A stretch of 5,949 nucleotides of DNA from a virus (IMGVR_UViG_3300028969_000052), one strand, 5' to 3'. Positions 1-5,949 are shown, numbered from the stretch's first letter. The notes: generated by a model from the letters alone, not told the origin. Made by a program: numbers and translations.

Positions 1-173
1 CGCTTGCCATGCCCGAACATTTCAATCCAGCGATATTCTGCCTGGGTGTGTTCACGCGCAATGAAGAACGTACAACCGGCTATCGCCCCGTAAACCCAGT
101 TTCCGGTAAAAAGACCAATCAGTACCTGCGCAGCCACAGCACAAAGCGCATGAAGAAAAGGTGTTATATCCAT
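1..173 (-). CDS. Small hydrophobic (probably membrane) protein, 5' part only; ORF runs off the window start. Translation from ATG at 173-171: MDITPFLHALCAVAAQVLIGLFTGNWVYGAIAGCTFFIAREHTQAEYRWIEMFGHGKR...
   Basis: Seen in sequence: ATG at 173-171 preceded by a strong Shine-Dalgarno AGGAGG (plus 176-181, 4-nt spacer), only 10 nt after the stop of the upstream 234-aa gene; open frame with no stop to position 1. Absent from the ORF track, probably because it is short and has no in-window stop. The hydrophobic stretch suggests a transmembrane helix. Function unknown. Confidence 0.45.
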   Translation of the reverse strand, partial: MDITPFLHALCAVAAQVLIGLFTGNWVYGAIAGCTFFIAREHTQAEYRWIEMFGHGK

Positions 174-183
174 TACTCCTCCT

Positions 184-888
184 TTATCTAATATCGCTTC
201 GGGAAGTTAATAACAACTTTAATTCTGACTCAAGTTCATCAACTCTTTCAGTCAGTTTCTGGATATGGTGAATCAGTGGAACAACCAGACGTTCGTACAT
301 TACACCTTCGGCAACAAGGCCATTGCTGGAAATAGCTTCAGGAGCATCATCTTCGTTAGCTGGTCGCCAGTGTACAAACTGAGGAGCAATTTCTCCTACT
401 TCCTCGGCAATCAATCCGTAGAATCCCCAGTCACGCCTGTCATTTTCGCATTGCGACCTGTACCACACAGGGCGCATCCTGAAAATGAGATCGGCGTGCT
501 CTGAATCTATTGTCTCTACTGAATGTTTATAGCGGATAGACGATGTTGACCGCAGTACAGACGAAATTGCAGGGTCAGGATTAAGATAAAGGTTTGCCGC
601 CGCTGTAGTCGTGGCCAAATTCCATAAATAAAACGCTTCACGACCTGTCAGTGGATAAAAATCTCCGCCATAACGACCACTTTCCAGATCGTTCACTTCC
701 ACTTTGTTTTTCAGCTTATTATCAACTTCAGTTTTTGTGTATCTGGAGCTGATATCCTGCTTTGCACTGGTCATATCAGTCTGAAGCGTTGATACTTTAC
801 TGTTAATTGAGGAAATATCTTCCTTCGCTTTACTGACATCTCCCTTCAGCGTGGTGATGTCTCCCGGAATTACTGTCGATGTAGCCAT
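184..888 (-). CDS. Tail-fibre-like protein (234 aa): N-terminal ~115 aa of coiled-coil/fibre-like sequence plus a C-terminal intramolecular chaperone auto-processing domain (Peptidase_S74 / endosialidase-chaperone type)
   Basis: ORF track 184..888. SD-like GAGGGAG 5-6 nt upstream of the ATG at 888-886. The C-terminal half (SSIRYKHSVETIDSEHADLIFRMRPVWYRSQ...GFYGLIAEEVGEIAPQFV...GVMYERLVVPLIHHIQKLTERVDELESEL) follows the conserved pattern I recall for the C-terminal intramolecular chaperone domain of endosialidase and phage tail fibres. Domain assignment is from memory, not a search. Confidence 0.7.
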   Translation of the reverse strand: MATSTVIPGDITTLKGDVSKAKEDISSINSKVSTLQTDMTSAKQDISSRYTKTEVDNKLKNKVEVNDLESGRYGGDFYPLTGREAFYLWNLATTTAAANLYLNPDPAISSVLRSTSSIRYKHSVETIDSEHADLIFRMRPVWYRSQCENDRRDWGFYGLIAEEVGEIAPQFVHWRPANEDDAPEAISSNGLVAEGVMYERLVVPLIHHIQKLTERVDELESELKLLLTSRSDIR

Positions 889-897
889 TTGTCTCCC

Positions 898-1179
898 TCA
901 CATCCAGCCACGAAGTTGATGTTCAACAACAACCGCGTATTCATCGAATATTGACGATTTTTTTGCATCATTAATGATGCGCACGTTTACAAAATATCCG
1001 TCTTCCTTAACACATACCGGTTCGCCATCTTCAGTCAGTTCTCCGGTTTCTTTGTACACGTTACCTATCACGTCAATAAGAATATCATCCTGCATCGACT
1101 CGTCATCATAATAGCCAGCACTCTTCATAAAGGCCGAAAAGTCGGCCTTGTCTGTGAATTTGATAATTAAATCTCGCAT
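898..1179 (-). CDS. Hypothetical acidic 93-aa protein, translationally coupled to the side tail fibre gene; possibly a fibre-specific chaperone or assembly factor (speculative)
   Basis: ORF track 898..1179. Its ATG (1179-1177) overlaps the stf stop codon (1181-1179) by one nucleotide (TAATG on the minus strand). Acidic composition, no recognisable similarity to lambda Tfa. AT-rich like the distal part of stf. Confidence 0.55.
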   Translation of the reverse strand: MRDLIIKFTDKADFSAFMKSAGYYDDESMQDDILIDVIGNVYKETGELTEDGEPVCVKEDGYFVNVRIINDAKKSSIFDEYAVVVEHQLRGWM

Positions 1180-3563
1180 TATATTATCTCTCCCATTTGC
1201 GCATCGGTTAATTCTTTATGCCATATTCTAAAATTCCTGATATAACCAAATAAATGACGTAAGCCGGCTGTAGTCTGGCCTCCAATCCTTATACCTGTAG
1301 CACCACTAACACTCTTCCACGTTGTTGATGCTGGTGTTGATAAAACCCCATTGCAGCCAGCCTGAAACTTGCCATCGCTTTTTATTCTATATACAGCGAT
1401 AATCTTTCTTGGGTAATTTCCAGGTGGAAATGATATTTGATTACCAAATTGAACATATGGAGTTCCTACACTACCTGCTGTATTTCTGAATGCAAAAACA
1501 AAAGCGTCGTCTTTTGTTTTAAATCCTGTTATATCATAAATTCTAGGCGCGGAATTTGGTGCTATAGACCAATTTTTATTCACTTCAACCATGCAGGTTA
1601 AAGGTTTGCTGGTCATGTTATTTTTACAAGGCAATGTAACAATATCGCTTGCTCGCGTTGATGCAACTGTATCGGAAATGATAAAAGATGATGCGCATGA
1701 GCCGCCTTCAAATTGTGGTGTCGTAACATCCAAATATTCCCCGCCCAAATAAGTTCCAGGTGAAACAGGTGGAGCAATTTGGATCTGAGAGCCAACCATA
1801 TTATCAATAGCTTCAGATTGATATGTAACCTCGAAATAAATCCATCCATTAGATTCTTTCTCCGCTCGGGCGGTTATTCTTGCAGCCCCTCCTCCCGTTT
1901 TTCTAATGGACATATCTGTTATATTAGGATATGCATCTGCCAGATAAAAATATGCGGACCCGTCATATCTTTCAAATCTTATACGACATTGTATATTAGC
2001 ACTATCGCTTTTTACACGACATGATGTTGTAACATACTTTTCAGTTCCAGTAACATCGACACCTCTTCCTCCTGAAACCGCAGCGATATTCATTGTCGTA
2101 TTTGTCCCAATTTTTTCGTCCTTTATTTGAAACCGCCCATAAGTAAAGCCAAACTCATCAACACCACTTTCTGTTATAGTTACACTTGTTGTAGCTCCCC
2201 ACTTAGATGGCGTAAGTGAATTAAGATGATAGTTGGTTCTTTGTCCTTCAATCAGCAAACCTTCTCGTTCAAATCGCGGTTCGTCAACTTCAGCAACGGT
2301 TAATACTCCTGATTTATTAATGTATGTTGCACCTGATGCGCGTTTGAAGCTAACAACCTTATCGGATGGCATTTTAATAACATCATCACCTACAGTTATT
2401 TGCTTATAACCAGGCGAAAAGCCAGCAAGCATATCCAGTGAATCGTTAAACGGTATCCACACATCGGGAAGCGGCTGCAAAACTTGTTTATACGGCTCCG
2501 CAGCCTGGCTTGCATACTCTCTGGCTGCGTCTTCACTTGCTTTTGCAGCCGTCTGGCTTGCAGCGGATGCTTTCGCCGAGTTAGCCGCCGCAGTCTCGCT
2601 CGCCTTTGCGTTGGTTTCACTGGTTTTTGCAGCTTTTTGACTGTTGGCTGATGCAGTGGCAGAAGAAGCCGCCGCACTTGCAGAACCAGCTGCGGCACTC
2701 TCGCTTTGGGCCGCTGCATCCTGACTGTTTTTCGCCGCAGTTTCGCTGGCTTTGGCATTCGTTTCGCTGGTCTTCGCTGCCGTCTGGCTGGACTTTGCGT
2801 TGGTTTCGCTCGTCTTCGCTGCTTTCTGGCTGTTAGCTGCAGCAGTTGCTGATCCAGCTGCTGAAGTCGCAGAACCGGCTGCAGCACTCTCGCTTTCGGC
2901 TGCTGCAGCCTGACTGCTTTTCGCCGCAGTTTCACTGGTTTTGGCATTCGTTTCGCTTGTTTTCGCTGCCGTCTGGCTGGACTTTGCGTTGGTTTCGCTC
3001 GTCTTTGCTGCTGTCTCGCTATTTTTCGCGTTGTTTTCTGATTTTTTAGCTGCTGTCGCGGAGTTTGCCGATGCAGTCTGCGAGGCCGCTGCCGCCTGTG
3101 CGCTGTTAGCTGCATTCGTTTCTGAGGTTTTCGCNNNNNNNNNNNNNNNNNNNNNNNCCGCTGCTGTTTCTGATTTCTTTGCTGCCGCTGCGCTCTGAGA
3201 GGCGGCTTCAGCGTTGTGTGCCGCTTCTTCCACCATTGCCTCAAAACGACGCAATGCCTCCGGCATGACATCATCTTCCGTCATGGCACCGAGAAAATCA
3301 TTCAGCGTACCTGGTCTGGAACCTTCATAGACGGTAATGGTTCCGGCATGTGAAGGCGGAAAACCTTCAACCAGCAGGATAACGCTATACTGGCCATACT
3401 CAACGTCCATGCTGTAACGCCCGGCTTCATCCGGATTTTCAGAGGCCACCGTGTTCACCAGTACAGTGGTGCTGTTACGCTTTGCCTTCAGTTGAATAGT
3501 GCAGTTCTGTATTGGTTTTCCCGCACCATCTTTCAGCACACCTGAGATTTTTACTGCTGCCAT
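1179..3563 (-). CDS. stf: Side tail fibre protein (lambda Stf-like N-terminus, repetitive Ala-rich shaft, distal domain ending in a probable ConA/LamG-like lectin fold); contains a 23-nt N-run
   Basis: ORF track 1179..3569 opens at a GTG that overlaps the SD. The likely true start is the ATG at 3563-3561 (GGAG, 5-nt spacer, ATG), giving MAAVKISGVLKDGAGKPIQNCTIQLKAKRNSTTV..., which matches the lambda Stf N-terminus as I recall it. The frame stays coherent across the N-run 3135-3157. The C-terminal motif GLRHLFGYIRNFRIWHKELTDAQMGEI resembles the end of LamG-type lectin domains (from memory). Confidence 0.85.
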   Translation of the reverse strand: MAAVKISGVLKDGAGKPIQNCTIQLKAKRNSTTVLVNTVASENPDEAGRYSMDVEYGQYSVILLVEGFPPSHAGTITVYEGSRPGTLNDFLGAMTEDDVMPEALRRFEAMVEEAAHNAEAASQSAAAAKKSETAAXXXXXXXXAKTSETNAANSAQAAAASQTASANSATAAKKSENNAKNSETAAKTSETNAKSSQTAAKTSETNAKTSETAAKSSQAAAAESESAAAGSATSAAGSATAAANSQKAAKTSETNAKSSQTAAKTSETNAKASETAAKNSQDAAAQSESAAAGSASAAASSATASANSQKAAKTSETNAKASETAAANSAKASAASQTAAKASEDAAREYASQAAEPYKQVLQPLPDVWIPFNDSLDMLAGFSPGYKQITVGDDVIKMPSDKVVSFKRASGATYINKSGVLTVAEVDEPRFEREGLLIEGQRTNYHLNSLTPSKWGATTSVTITESGVDEFGFTYGRFQIKDEKIGTNTTMNIAAVSGGRGVDVTGTEKYVTTSCRVKSDSANIQCRIRFERYDGSAYFYLADAYPNITDMSIRKTGGGAARITARAEKESNGWIYFEVTYQSEAIDNMVGSQIQIAPPVSPGTYLGGEYLDVTTPQFEGGSCASSFIISDTVASTRASDIVTLPCKNNMTSKPLTCMVEVNKNWSIAPNSAPRIYDITGFKTKDDAFVFAFRNTAGSVGTPYVQFGNQISFPPGNYPRKIIAVYRIKSDGKFQAGCNGVLSTPASTTWKSVSGATGIRIGGQTTAGLRHLFGYIRNFRIWHKELTDAQMGEII
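2637..3014. repeat. Two near-identical tandem direct repeats of ~189 bp (63 codons) inside the stf shaft, with nested ~42-bp (AKTSETNAKSSQTA-type) sub-repeats; the degenerate Ala/Ser/Thr/Lys repeat region extends over ~2500-3230
   Basis: Seen directly: the stretch ~2696-2820 is almost identical to ~2886-3010. The protein shows AKTSETNAKSSQTAAKTSETNAKTSETAAKSSQAAAAESESAAAGSATSAAGSATAAANSQKA followed by a near copy. Confidence 0.8.
3135..3157. other. Run of 23 N (assembly gap or masked bases) inside stf
   Basis: Literal N characters. The reading frame and the repeat pattern of stf are continuous on both sides. Confidence 0.95.
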
Positions 3564-3574
3564 ATCCACTCCAC

Positions 3575-3623: not shown

Positions 3624-4217
3624 CTAATCAGAATTTATAACCGACANNNNNNNNNNNNNNNNNNNNNNNNNNNNNNNNNNNNNNNNNNNNNNNNNNNNNN
3701 NNNNNNNNNNNNNNNNNNNNAACTGCACGCCAGCCCCCCACGCCAGAGACGTGTTGCTGTGGCGACCGTCATCACTTCCGGTCAGCACATCGTGCGTATC
3801 CCCCTTGTTGTCGGTCACCTGAAGATAATCCCCGGAAAAAGTCGACACACGGCTGTAAGCCACACCCGCGATCGCATACGCGCTGAACCATTCATTCACG
3901 CGCACAGACGGCCCCGCCATCACGCTGAACCAGCGGTTACGCACTGAATCTTCATGCCAGCGGGTATCGCTGTAATGCGTTTTTTGCTCATCTTTGGCAT
4001 TGGCATAACTGAATGACGTCACCAGCCCCAGCGTGTCCGTAAATTCATAACGGTATTTCACGTTAATGCCCTTCAGGTCATCACTGCCTGGCATATCAGT
4101 ATGGGTCTGAAGATACCCGGCGCTTAGTGTGGACTGATGCTCTGCTGCGCTCGCTGGCGTACCAGCGGCAACCAGCCAGACTACTGCGGACAGAATAACA
4201 GCACATAATTTACGCAT
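3624..4217 (-). CDS. lom: Lom/Ail-family outer-membrane beta-barrel protein (lambda Lom homologue); interrupted by a 73-nt N-run near the 3' end
   Basis: ORF track 3624..4217. N-terminus MRKLCAVILSAV...AAGTPASA is signal-peptide-like, and EHQSTLSAGYL...GINVKYRYEFTDTLGLVTSFSY...WGAGVQ matches lambda Lom as I recall it. SD GAGAGG 6-7 nt upstream of the ATG at 4217. After the N-run the track frame ends ...SVINSD, but the adjacent frame ends ...VGYKF-stop, the typical aromatic C-terminus of this family, so the 3' coordinate is uncertain by a few nt. Confidence 0.85.
   Translation of the reverse strand: MRKLCAVILSAVVWLVAAGTPASAAEHQSTLSAGYLQTHTDMPGSDDLKGINVKYRYEFTDTLGLVTSFSYANAKDEQKTHYSDTRWHEDSVRNRWFSVMAGPSVRVNEWFSAYAIAGVAYSRVSTFSGDYLQVTDNKGDTHDVLTGSDDGRHSNTSLAWGAGVQXXXXXXXXXXXXXXXXXXXXXXXXXXSVINSD
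3648..3720. other. Run of ~73 N (assembly gap or masked bases) inside the lom 3' region
   Basis: Literal N characters. The frame relationship across the gap is not preserved relative to the expected Lom C-terminus. Confidence 0.95.
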
Positions 4218-4241
4218 AATTACCTCTCGCTTTTCTGCAAT

Positions 4242-4265
4242 AAAAAAGGCGTCATTTCTGGCGCC
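4242..4265 (-). terminator. Possible weak intrinsic terminator between J and lom
   Basis: Minus-strand RNA: GGCGCCA-GAAA-UGACGCC (7-bp stem with one C/A mismatch, GAAA loop) followed by UUUUUU. The imperfect stem lowers confidence. Confidence 0.35.
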
Positions 4266-4284
4266 CGTATCTGGGTTATAAAAT

Positions 4285-5949
4285 TCAGCTAATCGTGATG
4301 CCTGCAGTGGCTTTCTTCATCACCACAACCAGCAAATCGCTGATACTTGCTGTGGGATACCAGCCATTTACCAGCCATGCCGATACAGAAAATTCCAGTG
4401 TCATGACACCACTGCCTGCAGGCATATCAATAACACCCGTATATATCAGCGTATTATCCAGAGCCGTTCGGTTATAAATTTCAGCACCGTTTTTTCGTAC
4501 TATCAGACGGCATGAGGAGTAGATATCAGTATGATCTTGCTCATGTTTAGCGCCACTGAATGCCACCGCCGGGATAACAATTTGCCGGTCAAACGGCTGA
4601 TCGTCATAAACCCTGACGGTAATGGTTCCTGATGGCCACCGCTCCGGTGCACGGGAGTCCCGGGGGAAAGCTTTGCCCACTGTTTTAACGAGATCACCTT
4701 CAATCTGGTTGGCGGACAGTTTTCCCAGAACCCGACAGTTCTCGTTAATCGTGACGTTGTTGAGCGTCCCGGAGTTCGCATTCACGTTACCGCTGATATC
4801 GGCATTTTTCGCCGTCAGCCGCCCGTCCGGTGTCAGGGAAAATGCCGGAGGATTACCGCCGCTGGTAATGGTGGGAGCCGTCAGATATTTCAGGAACACT
4901 TCATTCATGTATATCTGATCGCCCTGCCCAACAAACATCGGCTTTGTGTTGCCATTCGCAGGATTAATCATCGCAATCCTGTCTGCCGCCAGCAGCACCT
5001 GACTCTGCATGCCGTCAGGGGTGTTTTCAATACCGGCACCAATACCCGCGATATAAAGGCGTCCGTCCTGCATCTGCTGCAGCTTCACAGCCCACATGCT
5101 GTTCAGGTTATTATTTGTATCAACCTGAACCTTCTGTATCTGCTGGATCGCTGCACTCTGGTCTTCCAGTTTCTTATTGACGGTCTGCGTGATTTCATTA
5201 CTGACATCCGTGATGGACGTTCTGATTTCCGCCAGGTCAGGCGCAAGCTGACCGTTATCAATCTGCGTCCACAACTCCTGAGCCAGATGGGTTTTCCCTA
5301 TCTCTCCTTTGAAAAAATCCAGATAGCCGGATGCATCATCACTCGGCTGGCCAACAGCCTCCACGAATGCCGATTTGCCAACGGTGTTCACACTGCGGAT
5401 GTAAAAATAATAATCATGGCCCGGCTTGATATTGATACTGGCAGCTATCCAGTACAGCGCCGTGCCAAGATAGCGGGCTGTGGTTTCAACCTGCCTGATA
5501 TCCGCAATCCGCTTTTCCGAGAACCAGAACTCAAACTGTACCGTCGGATCATAAACCGCAAGATGCGGCGTGGCGGTGATCTGAAAATAGCCCGGAGTCA
5601 GCTCAATCCGCGACGGCGCTGACGGTGCGGCAATCCGGAACGATACCGACGCCGGATCGCCCTGCTGCCCCCACGCATTTACTGCCCGGACTGTCAGCGT
5701 GTAACGCCCCAGCGCCAGTTGCCTGAAGCGGTATGTGGTTTCCGTCGTCCGGGCTGTGCTGACAAGCCGCTCACTGCCGTCATCCGCTGCCACGGTCAGG
5801 CGAAGCATAAAGCTCACCCCCTTCACCACCTTCGGCGTGTCCCATCGCGCCAGTACCTGATATTCCCCGCTGTCTGCGGTGACTTCGGCAGTCAGGTGCT
5901 GCACTGCTGGCGGCGTGACACCATTCACCGTGCCGCTCTGGTCACCGTC
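4285..5949 (-). CDS. J: Host-specificity protein J (central tail fibre / tip attachment protein), C-terminal ~555 codons; the 5' end lies beyond the window
   Basis: The ORF is open to the window edge. The M at 5928 in the track is an internal GTG and upstream codons read DGDQSGT without a stop. [33 protein letters not shown]...[22 protein letters not shown]...[21 protein letters not shown]...[20 protein letters not shown] matches lambda J as I recall it; the last ~150 aa diverge. Confidence 0.9.

What the first reader, a model, noticed from the sequence alone, without database searches (positions are those of the whole stretch)
1..1179. Compact three-gene cassette immediately downstream of the side tail fibre: coupled 93-aa protein, 234-aa fibre-like protein with an intramolecular-chaperone domain, and a small membrane protein
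The three genes sit back to back on the fibre strand (1-nt overlap with stf, then 9-nt and 10-nt intergenic gaps, each with its own SD), which is operon-like. This is the position where lambdoid phages carry tail fibre assembly genes and, in many prophages, accessory cargo (morons). None resembles lambda Tfa. The combination of a stand-alone short fibre with a self-cleaving chaperone domain plus a small membrane protein is not a module I can name. It could be an alternative or auxiliary receptor-binding fibre with its helper, a superinfection-exclusion or receptor-masking module, or a remnant of fibre-module exchange.
Basis: partly seen in the sequence, partly recalled or inferred. Interest (0 to 1): 0.7.

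Follow-up and report, generated by a model that had tools for sequence, protein, structure and literature searches.

The report
Two-part side tail fibre module
The three small genes after the side tail fibre gene are a widespread accessory set: a small partner protein of the fibre, a short add-on fibre that folds and cuts itself with a built-in chaperone, and an unrelated small membrane protein; the fibre part is a known kind, and the two small proteins have no known function.

Summary
The third gene runs off the window; only 57 of about 95-97 codons are present.

All three genes are real. Across about 80 prophage loci their median dN/dS is 0.15-0.36, and the full cassette occurs in 723 of 5426 complete E. 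coli genomes, including BL21 and REL606.

It is not one three-gene unit.
- **Stf C-terminal module plus 93-aa gene.** The last ~430 residues of Stf and the 93-aa gene travel together through lambdoid, T1-like, T5-like, Dhillonvirus, Queuovirinae and rV5-like phages.
- **234-aa gene.** It is the shortest allele of a replaceable distal fibre. All alleles share a 15-residue N-terminal motif, including the 574-aa Gp24 of T5-like phage IrisVonRoten, which has been modelled as attached to its Stf-like proximal fibre. Its self-cleaving chaperone domain is confirmed, with Ser116 and Lys121.
- **93-aa protein.** It has no Pfam family and no informative fold match, and is not Tfa-like. I infer an assembly factor or joint piece.
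- **Membrane protein (Ybl63).** It moves independently, also sitting after a P22-like tailspike gene. Close, intact copies were seen only in temperate phages, and a decayed fragment in one virulent phage.

Verdict: a new member of a known kind, of modest interest.

The parts
1179..3569 (-). stf, the side tail fibre (796 aa from a GTG start; the true start is probably a few codons in). It has the prophage tail fibre N-terminal domain, an Ala-rich repeat shaft, and a C-terminal module of about 430 aa with lectin-like domains.
   Evidence: Pfam phage_tail_N E 3e-66 and Laminin_G_3; NCBIfam GTA_spike_fiber; alignment A2.
1182..2480 (-). Stf C-terminal module, from QPLPDVWIPFNDSLDM to the end. It is shared by the lateral fibres of lambdoid, T1-like, T5-like, Dhillonvirus, Queuovirinae and rV5-like phages. 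Its central part is the hypervariable, presumed receptor-binding region.
   Evidence: 218 phage records by tblastn; only 40-57% identity among prophage loci whose 93-aa genes are 86-99% identical; DNA diversity profile.
898..1179 (-). 93-aa protein (phrog_1361), translationally coupled to stf through a TAATG overlap. Inferred to be a partner of the Stf C-terminal module, either an assembly factor or a joint component.
   Evidence: 181 phage records, always directly after a lateral fibre gene. No Pfam, NCBIfam or PADLOC hit. AlphaFold2 pLDDT 80.8 with no informative fold match. dN/dS 0.36.
184..888 (-). 234-aa short distal fibre: N-terminal docking motif, coiled coil, short pre-cleavage segment and intramolecular chaperone domain.
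   Evidence: dN/dS 0.19.
844..888 (-). Codons 1-15 of the 234-aa protein (MATSTVIPGDITTLK). This N-terminal motif is conserved in every allele of the downstream fibre gene, and I infer it is the attachment element.
   Evidence: Invariant columns M1 T3 T5 I7 P8 D10 I11 L14 K15 in A3. Also present in KarlBarth gp30 and VogelGryff gp24.
187..543 (-). Intramolecular chaperone / auto-processing domain (aa 116-234). The predicted cleavage serine Ser116 is at codon 541-543 and Lys121 at codon 526-528.
   Evidence: PF13884 over aa 116-172. K121 invariant and S116 at least 90% conserved in A5. pLDDT above 90 for aa 125-233. Foldseek hits 7dc3 (E 8e-6), 3gw6 and 3gud.
1..173 (-). 5' part (57 codons) of a small membrane protein gene of the Ybl63 family (phrog_1443). 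The full length is 95-97 aa in relatives, and the gene continues beyond the window edge.
   Evidence: Hydropathy shows hydrophobic stretches at aa 4-39 and 74-94. Name. dN/dS 0.15.

Best explanation
The locus encodes a two-part side tail fibre plus an unrelated cargo gene.

Stf is the proximal fibre. Its phage-specific N-terminus anchors it to the tail, and its ~430-residue C-terminal module carries variable lectin-like domains.

The 93-aa protein is made by translational coupling with Stf. It is a dedicated partner of that C-terminal module, most likely an assembly factor or a small joint component that binds the conserved end of Stf. It is not a Tfa homologue.

The 234-aa protein is a minimal distal fibre. 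Its conserved first 15 residues dock it onto the Stf end. Residues ~9-60 form a trimeric coiled coil. The C-terminal intramolecular chaperone nucleates trimer folding and then cuts itself off at Ser116 with Lys121 as partner, leaving a stub of about 115 residues with little or no receptor-binding domain. Other phages carry longer alleles (346, 388 and 574 aa) with real binding domains in the same slot.

The small membrane protein (Ybl63 family) is a separate mobile gene. Intact close copies were found only in temperate phages, at the end of receptor-binding gene clusters. Its most likely role is a lysogen-benefit function at the envelope, such as exclusion or receptor or envelope modification.

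Shown here: the homologies, the domain assignment, synteny, purifying selection and the mosaic pattern. Inferred: physical docking, the role of the 93-aa protein, autoproteolysis, and the function of the membrane protein.
For: - **Junctions.** Gene junctions and Shine-Dalgarno sequences are as described.
- **Stf module and 93-aa gene co-occur.** The Stf C-terminal module is conserved across phage families (A2; 218 records). The 93-aa gene co-occurs with it (181 records), including loci with no distal fibre: phage 21 and the rV5-like JeffSchatz.
- **Shared docking motif.** The N-terminal motif is shared by the 234-aa, 346-aa, 231-aa and 574-aa proteins (A3), and by KarlBarth gp30 and VogelGryff gp24. 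IrisVonRoten Gp24 is modelled as attached to the proximal fibre Gp22 in PMC11990801.
- **Chaperone domain.** Supported.
- **Synteny.** Gene order and spacing are invariant in 80 prophage loci, with two fibre alleles.
- **Selection.** dN/dS is 0.15-0.36 for all genes.
- **Conserved island.** The last ~40 nt of stf, the 93-aa gene and the first ~30 nt of the fibre gene are conserved between two variable stretches.
- **Membrane gene is independent.** It follows the tailspike gene in the P22-like phage Gally and follows the 92-aa gene directly in phage 21 and in PhiR41_1. It is absent from T1-like and T5-like loci with the same fibre module. In the virulent phage HC6 it is a decayed 51-aa fragment.
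Against: - No direct evidence exists that the 234-aa product is in virions or binds Stf. Multimer modelling could not be run.
- The mature 115-residue product has almost no room for a receptor-binding domain. It is 93-100% conserved while the Stf C-terminal module varies, so it may not affect host range at all.
- BASEL annotators called the homologue a 'putative lateral tail fiber chaperone'.
- Distant homologues of the membrane protein occur in virulent Aeromonas jumbo phages, which weakens the lysogeny-specific reading.
- No promoter or terminator signal marks the membrane gene as an independent transcription unit.
Confidence: 0.6

Rival explanations
1. The 234-aa protein is not a structural fibre. 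It is a trans-acting folding chaperone for Stf: it docks transiently through its N-terminus, its chaperone domain helps Stf trimerise, and it is then released.
For: Homologues are annotated 'putative lateral tail fiber chaperone' or 'chaperone of endosialidase'. The mature part lacks an obvious binding domain: the region before the cleavage site is also conserved in long fibres. It is highly conserved while the Stf C-terminal module varies. Stf itself has no built-in chaperone domain and no Tfa.
Against: Phage 21 and rV5-like phages have the same Stf C-terminal module and the 93-aa gene but no such protein, so Stf folding does not need it. The same N-terminal motif heads long proteins with clear receptor-binding domains (PMC11990801). 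From general knowledge of the family, these chaperone domains act in cis on the segment just upstream.
Confidence: 0.15
2. The 234-aa ORF is a non-functional leftover: the 3' end of an older, longer tail fibre gene stranded by module exchange.
For: It matches positions 1147-1383 of the 1385-position profile phrog_3299. In related prophages a tfa fragment and a Pin-type recombinase lie downstream, which are signs of past fibre rearrangement.
Against: dN/dS is 0.19. The ORF is intact, with the same start and spacing, in about 38 prophage loci. Full-length stand-alone homologues at 56-60% identity occur in about 40 virulent T1-like phages. It has its own Shine-Dalgarno sequence and ATG. K121 is invariant and S116 is at least 90% conserved.
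Confidence: 0.03
3. All three genes form one functional unit in which the membrane protein serves fibre assembly or export, for example as a membrane anchor or assembly platform.
For: The order and 10-nt spacing are invariant in about 66 prophage loci. The membrane gene is found after receptor-binding genes in three different temperate phage types. DNA homology in Gally and HC6 links the 3' end of the chaperone-domain fibre gene with the membrane gene.
Against: Virulent phages with the same Stf module, 93-aa gene and fibre gene lack it. It follows an unrelated tailspike gene in Gally, after a 240-nt gap. A homologue lies among small unannotated genes, with no annotated fibre gene nearby, in an Aeromonas phage.
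Confidence: 0.07

Closest known systems
Two-part lateral tail fibre of T5-like phage IrisVonRoten (Bas32): proximal fibre Gp22, small Gp23, distal T-shaped fibre Gp24 (PMC11990801)
   Same: The gene order and spacing match. The Stf C-terminal module is 76% identical. The small protein is 39% identical. The downstream fibre begins with the same N-terminal motif and ends with an intramolecular chaperone domain.
   Different: Gp24 is 574 aa with two predicted receptor-binding domains, whereas the window protein is 234 aa with almost none. The N-terminal anchors of the proximal fibres differ (lambdoid versus T5 type). The window version carries an extra membrane protein gene. The published text that I read (sections 19-20) does not discuss the small protein.
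Lateral fibre locus of T1-like phages such as PeterMerian (Bas05): lateral fibre, 92-aa protein, 231-aa 'putative lateral tail fiber chaperone'
   Same: It has the same three-gene fibre part. The 231-aa protein is 57-60% identical over nearly its full length, with the same architecture.
   Different: These are virulent phages with no membrane protein gene downstream. The function is assigned only by annotation.
Branched L-shaped tail fibres of DT57C (LtfA/LtfB; PMC4728585, PMC10713586)
   Same: A second fibre protein is attached through the first rather than to the tail. The chaperone domain of LtfA (PDB 8hqz) matches the 234-aa protein at E 1.6e-6.
   Different: In DT57C both proteins are long and each carries its own chaperone domain. 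No small intervening gene is mentioned in the passages I read, and I did not inspect the DT57C locus itself. Attachment of LtfB was inferred genetically.
Lambda Stf/Tfa and the Mu or P2 fibre-plus-chaperone gene pairs
   Same: A small gene directly downstream of, and coupled to, the fibre gene is the classical position for a fibre assembly protein.
   Different: No sequence or fold similarity was found between the 93-aa protein and Tfa-type proteins. A tfa fragment lies further downstream in related prophages, as a relic of that older system.
Receptor-binding-gene-adjacent conversion or exclusion genes of temperate phages (cor of phi80/N15, gtrABC next to the P22 tailspike gene)
   Same: The membrane gene occupies the same position, at the end of the receptor-binding gene cluster next to the integration region, in lambdoid and P22-like phages.
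   Different: There is no homology to any of them. There is no conserved lipobox and no PADLOC or Pfam hit. The function is untested.

Membership tests
Intramolecular chaperone / Peptidase_S74 (endosialidase-type) C-terminal domain (234-aa protein) | Profile match above the curated threshold | tested here: met
   PF13884 scores 27.4 bits against a cut-off of 22, over aa 116-172 and profile positions 1-57 of 58.
Intramolecular chaperone / Peptidase_S74 (endosialidase-type) C-terminal domain (234-aa protein) | Serine at the cleavage site with a lysine five residues downstream | tested here: met
   Ser116 and Lys121 lie in SSIRYK. K121 is invariant and S116 is at least 90% conserved in 43 sequences.
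Intramolecular chaperone / Peptidase_S74 (endosialidase-type) C-terminal domain (234-aa protein) | Fold of the domain, ending in a long C-terminal helix | tested here: met
   The model has pLDDT above 90 for aa 125-233 and a helix at 198-233. Foldseek hits are 7dc3 (E 8e-6), 3gw6 and 3gud.
Intramolecular chaperone / Peptidase_S74 (endosialidase-type) C-terminal domain (234-aa protein) | Autoproteolytic release after trimer folding | not testable with these tools
   This needs protein expression and mass spectrometry, or an S116A mutant.
Distal component of a two-part lateral fibre (IrisVonRoten Gp24 type) | Gene sits downstream of an Stf-like proximal fibre gene with the shared C-terminal module and the small intervening gene | tested here: met
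Distal component of a two-part lateral fibre (IrisVonRoten Gp24 type) | Shared N-terminal attachment motif | tested here: met
   M1 T3 T5 I7 P8 D10 I11 L14 K15 are invariant across 8 proteins from lambdoid, T1-like and T5-like phages. The motif is also in Dhillonvirus and Seuratvirus proteins.
Distal component of a two-part lateral fibre (IrisVonRoten Gp24 type) | Physical attachment to the proximal fibre in the virion | not testable with these tools
   No multimer modelling was available, and I found no virion proteomics.
Distal component of a two-part lateral fibre (IrisVonRoten Gp24 type) | A receptor-binding domain between the anchor and the chaperone domain | tested here: not met
   Only about 50 residues lie between the coiled coil and Ser116, and about 30 of them are the pre-cleavage segment conserved in unrelated long fibres. 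The model has low confidence for aa 59-114.
Tail fibre assembly proteins of the lambda Tfa / Mu gpU type (93-aa protein) | Sequence profile match | tested here: not met
   No Pfam family at E up to 1 and no NCBIfam family at E up to 0.1. The only PHROG hits are of unknown function.
Tail fibre assembly proteins of the lambda Tfa / Mu gpU type (93-aa protein) | Fold similarity to solved fibre chaperones | tested here: not met
Tail fibre assembly proteins of the lambda Tfa / Mu gpU type (93-aa protein) | Gene immediately downstream of, and coupled to, its fibre gene | tested here: met
   TAATG overlap. The same position is held in 181 phage records.
Holins (membrane protein) | Profile match and location in a lysis cassette | tested here: not met
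   The only hit was Phage_holin_8 at E 0.067 and 13.8 bits (cut-off 26.4), on the 57-aa fragment. Full-length relatives gave no holin hit. The gene lies after the fibre genes, not in a lysis cassette.
Receptor-blocking lipoproteins (Cor/Llp type) (membrane protein) | Signal peptide with a conserved lipobox cysteine | tested here: not met
   IAGC at aa 31-34 is a possible lipobox, but it is not conserved in the Aeromonas homologue, and the N-terminus has no positive charge.
Moron (independent transcription unit within the late operon) (membrane protein) | Own promoter and terminator | tested here: inconclusive
   Consensus scans found no promoter upstream and no terminator downstream beyond chance. 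The upstream DNA differs between phage types apart from the Shine-Dalgarno sequence.

The most novel reading that the evidence does not exclude
The conserved island formed by the last residues of Stf, the 93-aa protein and the first 15 residues of the downstream fibre may be a universal plug-and-socket joint. In this reading the 93-aa protein is the structural connector that lets distal fibres of any length be swapped among lambdoid, T1-like, T5-like, Dhillonvirus and Queuovirinae phages. Separately, Ybl63 may be a new small inner-membrane factor of temperate phages that acts on the envelope to exclude or mask against related phages.
Probability: 0.3. Interest if true: 0.5.

Novelty: new member of a known kind. 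Interest (0 to 1): 0.35.

Why it matters
Lateral fibres set which O-antigen or capsule types a phage can cross, and they are prime targets for host-range engineering. This module sits in roughly one in eight complete E. coli genomes in full form, including the laboratory B strains, and in several families of virulent phages considered for therapy. Knowing that the Stf C-terminal module needs the 93-aa gene, and that distal fibres plug in through a 15-residue motif, would give practical rules for building chimeric fibres. The two small proteins are common and still have no assigned function.

Tried and rejected
- **Family searches.** Pfam, NCBIfam, PHROGs and PADLOC gave no function for the 93-aa or membrane proteins. 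Searches of PDB sequences gave nothing for them or for the Stf C-terminal module.
- **Exhaustive profile search with the 93-aa family.** I looked for fusions to fibre proteins. The long hits were PKD, TPR and choline-binding repeat proteins, which I judge spurious sums of weak repeat matches.
- **Invertible segment driven by the downstream Pin recombinase.** No bracketing inverted repeats were found.
- **Own promoter or terminator for the membrane gene.** None found.
- **Lipoprotein reading of the membrane protein.** The cysteine is not conserved.
- **Known RNA families.** Rfam found nothing in the window.
- **Literature.** I found nothing on the 93-aa protein or Ybl63.

Full report
**What is in the window**

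All genes of interest lie on the minus strand. In order they are:
- the C-terminal part of J (4285-5928);
- lom (3624-4217);
- stf (1179-3569);
- a 93-aa ORF (898-1179);
- a 234-aa ORF (184-888);
- a third ORF starting at 173 that runs off the window edge.

The stf stop overlaps the next ATG in TAATG, and gaps of 9 and 10 nt follow, each with a purine-rich Shine-Dalgarno sequence (GGGAG, AGGAGG). Only 57 codons of the third gene are in the window. In near-identical relatives the protein is 95-97 aa long.

**How common the cassette is**

The 1179 bases match 1885 of 5426 complete E. coli genomes. In 723 of them at least 80% of the stretch is covered, including BL21(DE3), REL606 and E. coli C. 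Three phage records cover at least 80% of the stretch: IdasGreatGrand, PhiR49_1 and its variant PhiR49_1_star.

In 80 IMG/VR prophage loci chosen through the 93-aa protein, the gene order and spacing are essentially invariant. The order is stf, 93-aa gene, fibre gene, membrane gene. The fibre gene comes in two alleles, of 234 aa (about 38 loci) and 346 aa (about 26 loci).

Pairwise Nei-Gojobori estimates give the following median dN/dS values:

| Gene | Median dN/dS |
|---|---|
| 93-aa gene | 0.36 |
| 234-aa allele | 0.19 |
| 346-aa allele | 0.21 |
| membrane gene | 0.15 |

All four are therefore maintained by selection, and the 234-aa ORF is not a decaying fragment.

**The 234-aa protein**

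Pfam places a Peptidase_S74 (endosialidase chaperone) domain at residues 116-172, above the curated threshold. Residues 110-222 match the C-terminus of the DT57C fibre protein LtfA, PDB 8hqz.

The AlphaFold2 model has three parts: a long helix at 9-47, a low-confidence stretch at 59-114, and a confident domain at 125-233 ending in a long helix. Foldseek matches that domain to the MyRF auto-processing domain and to the endosialidase and GA-1 chaperone structures.

Ser116 and Lys121 occupy the positions of the catalytic pair. Lys121 is invariant and Ser116 is at least 90% conserved in 43 homologues. I did not show cleavage; it follows from what is known of this family.

The most informative feature is the N-terminus. 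The first 15 residues (M-[AV]-T-x-T-x-I-P-x-D-I-T-x-L-K) are shared by these proteins:

| Phage (type) | Protein | Length | Chaperone domain |
|---|---|---|---|
| This window (lambdoid prophage) | 234-aa ORF | 234 aa | yes |
| Tritos (lambdoid) | fibre protein | 346 aa | yes |
| PeterMerian (T1-like) | gp29 | 231 aa | yes |
| IrisVonRoten (T5-like) | Gp24 | 574 aa | yes |
| VogelGryff (Seuratvirus) | gp24 | 388 aa | yes |
| KarlBarth (Dhillonvirus) | gp30 | 98 aa | no |

The BASEL authors modelled IrisVonRoten Gp24 as a distal T-shaped fibre attached to the Stf-like proximal fibre Gp22 (PMC11990801). The window protein is thus the shortest allele of a replaceable distal fibre.

It has almost no room for a receptor-binding domain. 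Between the coiled coil and Ser116 lie about 50 residues. About 30 of them form a pre-cleavage segment also conserved in unrelated long fibres.

**The 93-aa protein**

It has no Pfam, NCBIfam or PADLOC family. It belongs to phrog_1361, whose function is unknown.

tblastn finds it in 181 phage records: lambdoid, T1-like, Dhillonvirus, Queuovirinae, T5-like and rV5-like phages. Wherever the record is annotated, it sits directly after a lateral fibre gene. Those fibres share the last ~430 residues of Stf, from QPLPDVWIPFNDSLDM to the end (A2), and that module is found in 218 phage records.

Phage 21 and the rV5-like JeffSchatz keep the Stf module and the small gene but have no distal fibre. The small protein therefore belongs with Stf, not with the distal fibre.

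An exhaustive profile search found 97 clusters at 50% identity. The credible ones are all small stand-alone proteins. The long hits are repeat proteins that I regard as spurious.

Among 66 prophage loci the body of the Stf C-terminal module is very diverse, with 0.53-0.69 mean pairwise DNA identity. The last ~40 nt of stf, the whole 93-aa gene and the first ~30 nt of the fibre gene form a conserved island at 0.87-0.99.

I read this island as the invariant joint between two exchangeable parts. The small protein would be either an assembly factor or a connector. This is inference from position, coupling and co-occurrence, not from any demonstrated activity.

**The membrane protein**

Full-length relatives have hydrophobic stretches at residues 4-39 and 74-94. 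Between them lies a conserved tryptophan-rich loop, REHxQAEYRxI...GKRxNxPWWxGF..RAWD. Some databases call it Ybl63, and I found no literature on it. It hits no Pfam or PADLOC family.

It is not tied to this fibre type:
- In phage 21 and the phage-plasmid-sized PhiR41_1 it follows the 92-aa gene directly.
- In the P22-like phage Gally it follows the tailspike gene, after a 240-nt gap and next to the integrase gene.
- It is absent from T1-like, T5-like, Dhillonvirus and Seuratvirus loci that carry the same fibre module.

Two further observations bear on its history. In Gally a decayed copy of the 3' end of the chaperone-domain gene precedes it. In the virulent phage HC6 a fibre with the chaperone domain is followed by a decayed 51-aa fragment of the membrane gene.

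Intact close copies thus appear only in temperate phages, and a decayed copy in one virulent phage. This points to a function useful to the lysogen, but more distant intact homologues exist in virulent Aeromonas jumbo phages. Consensus scans gave no evidence for its own promoter or terminator.

**Conclusion**

The first two genes, together with the C-terminal part of stf, form a widespread two-part lateral fibre module. Its general design is already described for a T5-like phage, and in T1-like phages it is known only through annotation. The window holds its lambdoid version with the minimal distal allele. The third gene is an independent, uncharacterised membrane protein.

The 'remnant' reading is rejected. 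The 'trans-acting chaperone' reading of the 234-aa protein is less likely but not excluded.

Nothing here is categorically new. The open points are the roles of the 93-aa protein and of Ybl63.

Noticed in passing
L087 (phage Gally) about 3900-4290; L093 (phage HC6) 2465-2620: The membrane gene seems to move together with the last ~75-100 nt of the chaperone-domain fibre gene. Gally, a P22-like phage, has a decayed copy of that 3' end in front of an intact membrane gene. The virulent phage HC6 has a chaperone-domain fibre followed by a decayed 51-aa fragment of the membrane gene.
   Followed up: partly
window 860-1220 (conserved island); window 1220-2240 (variable stf body): Among 66 prophage loci, DNA identity is 0.87-0.99 across the last ~40 nt of stf, the 93-aa gene and the first ~30 nt of the fibre gene. 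It is only 0.53-0.69 in the body of the Stf C-terminal module. This is a conserved linker between two exchangeable cassettes.
   Followed up: partly
L002 8320-9118 (E. coli EcPF14): In the closest chromosomal relative the cassette is followed by a 3' fragment of a tail fibre assembly (tfa) gene and a Pin-type recombinase. The prophage sits at the Qin site next to ydfK and ydfJ. No inverted repeats bracket the cassette, so this looks like a relic of an older invertible fibre system.
   Followed up: partly
window 2586-3020: A 189-nt tandem repeat (2.3 copies, 84% matches), with nested 21- and 42-nt periods, lies in the Ala-rich shaft region of stf.
   Followed up: no
window 3135-3157 and 3647-3720: Two runs of N (23 and 74 bases) interrupt stf and lom. 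The translations there are unknown.
   Followed up: no
window 3563-3569: The listed GTG start of stf gives MDMAAVK..., whereas homologues begin MAVQISG... The true start is probably the ATG two codons downstream.
   Followed up: no
L006 4386-7835 (phage 21): In phage 21 the membrane gene is followed, on the opposite strand, by a sitABCD iron/manganese transporter operon. This is cargo in the same region where other relatives carry pin or int.
   Followed up: no
proteins P0308, P0309, P0335 and others: The 93-aa profile gives summed multi-stretch hits to PKD-repeat, TPR and choline-binding proteins. The likely cause is that its beta-hairpin (EDGYFVNVRIIND) resembles a common repeat motif. I treated these as false positives.
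   Followed up: partly
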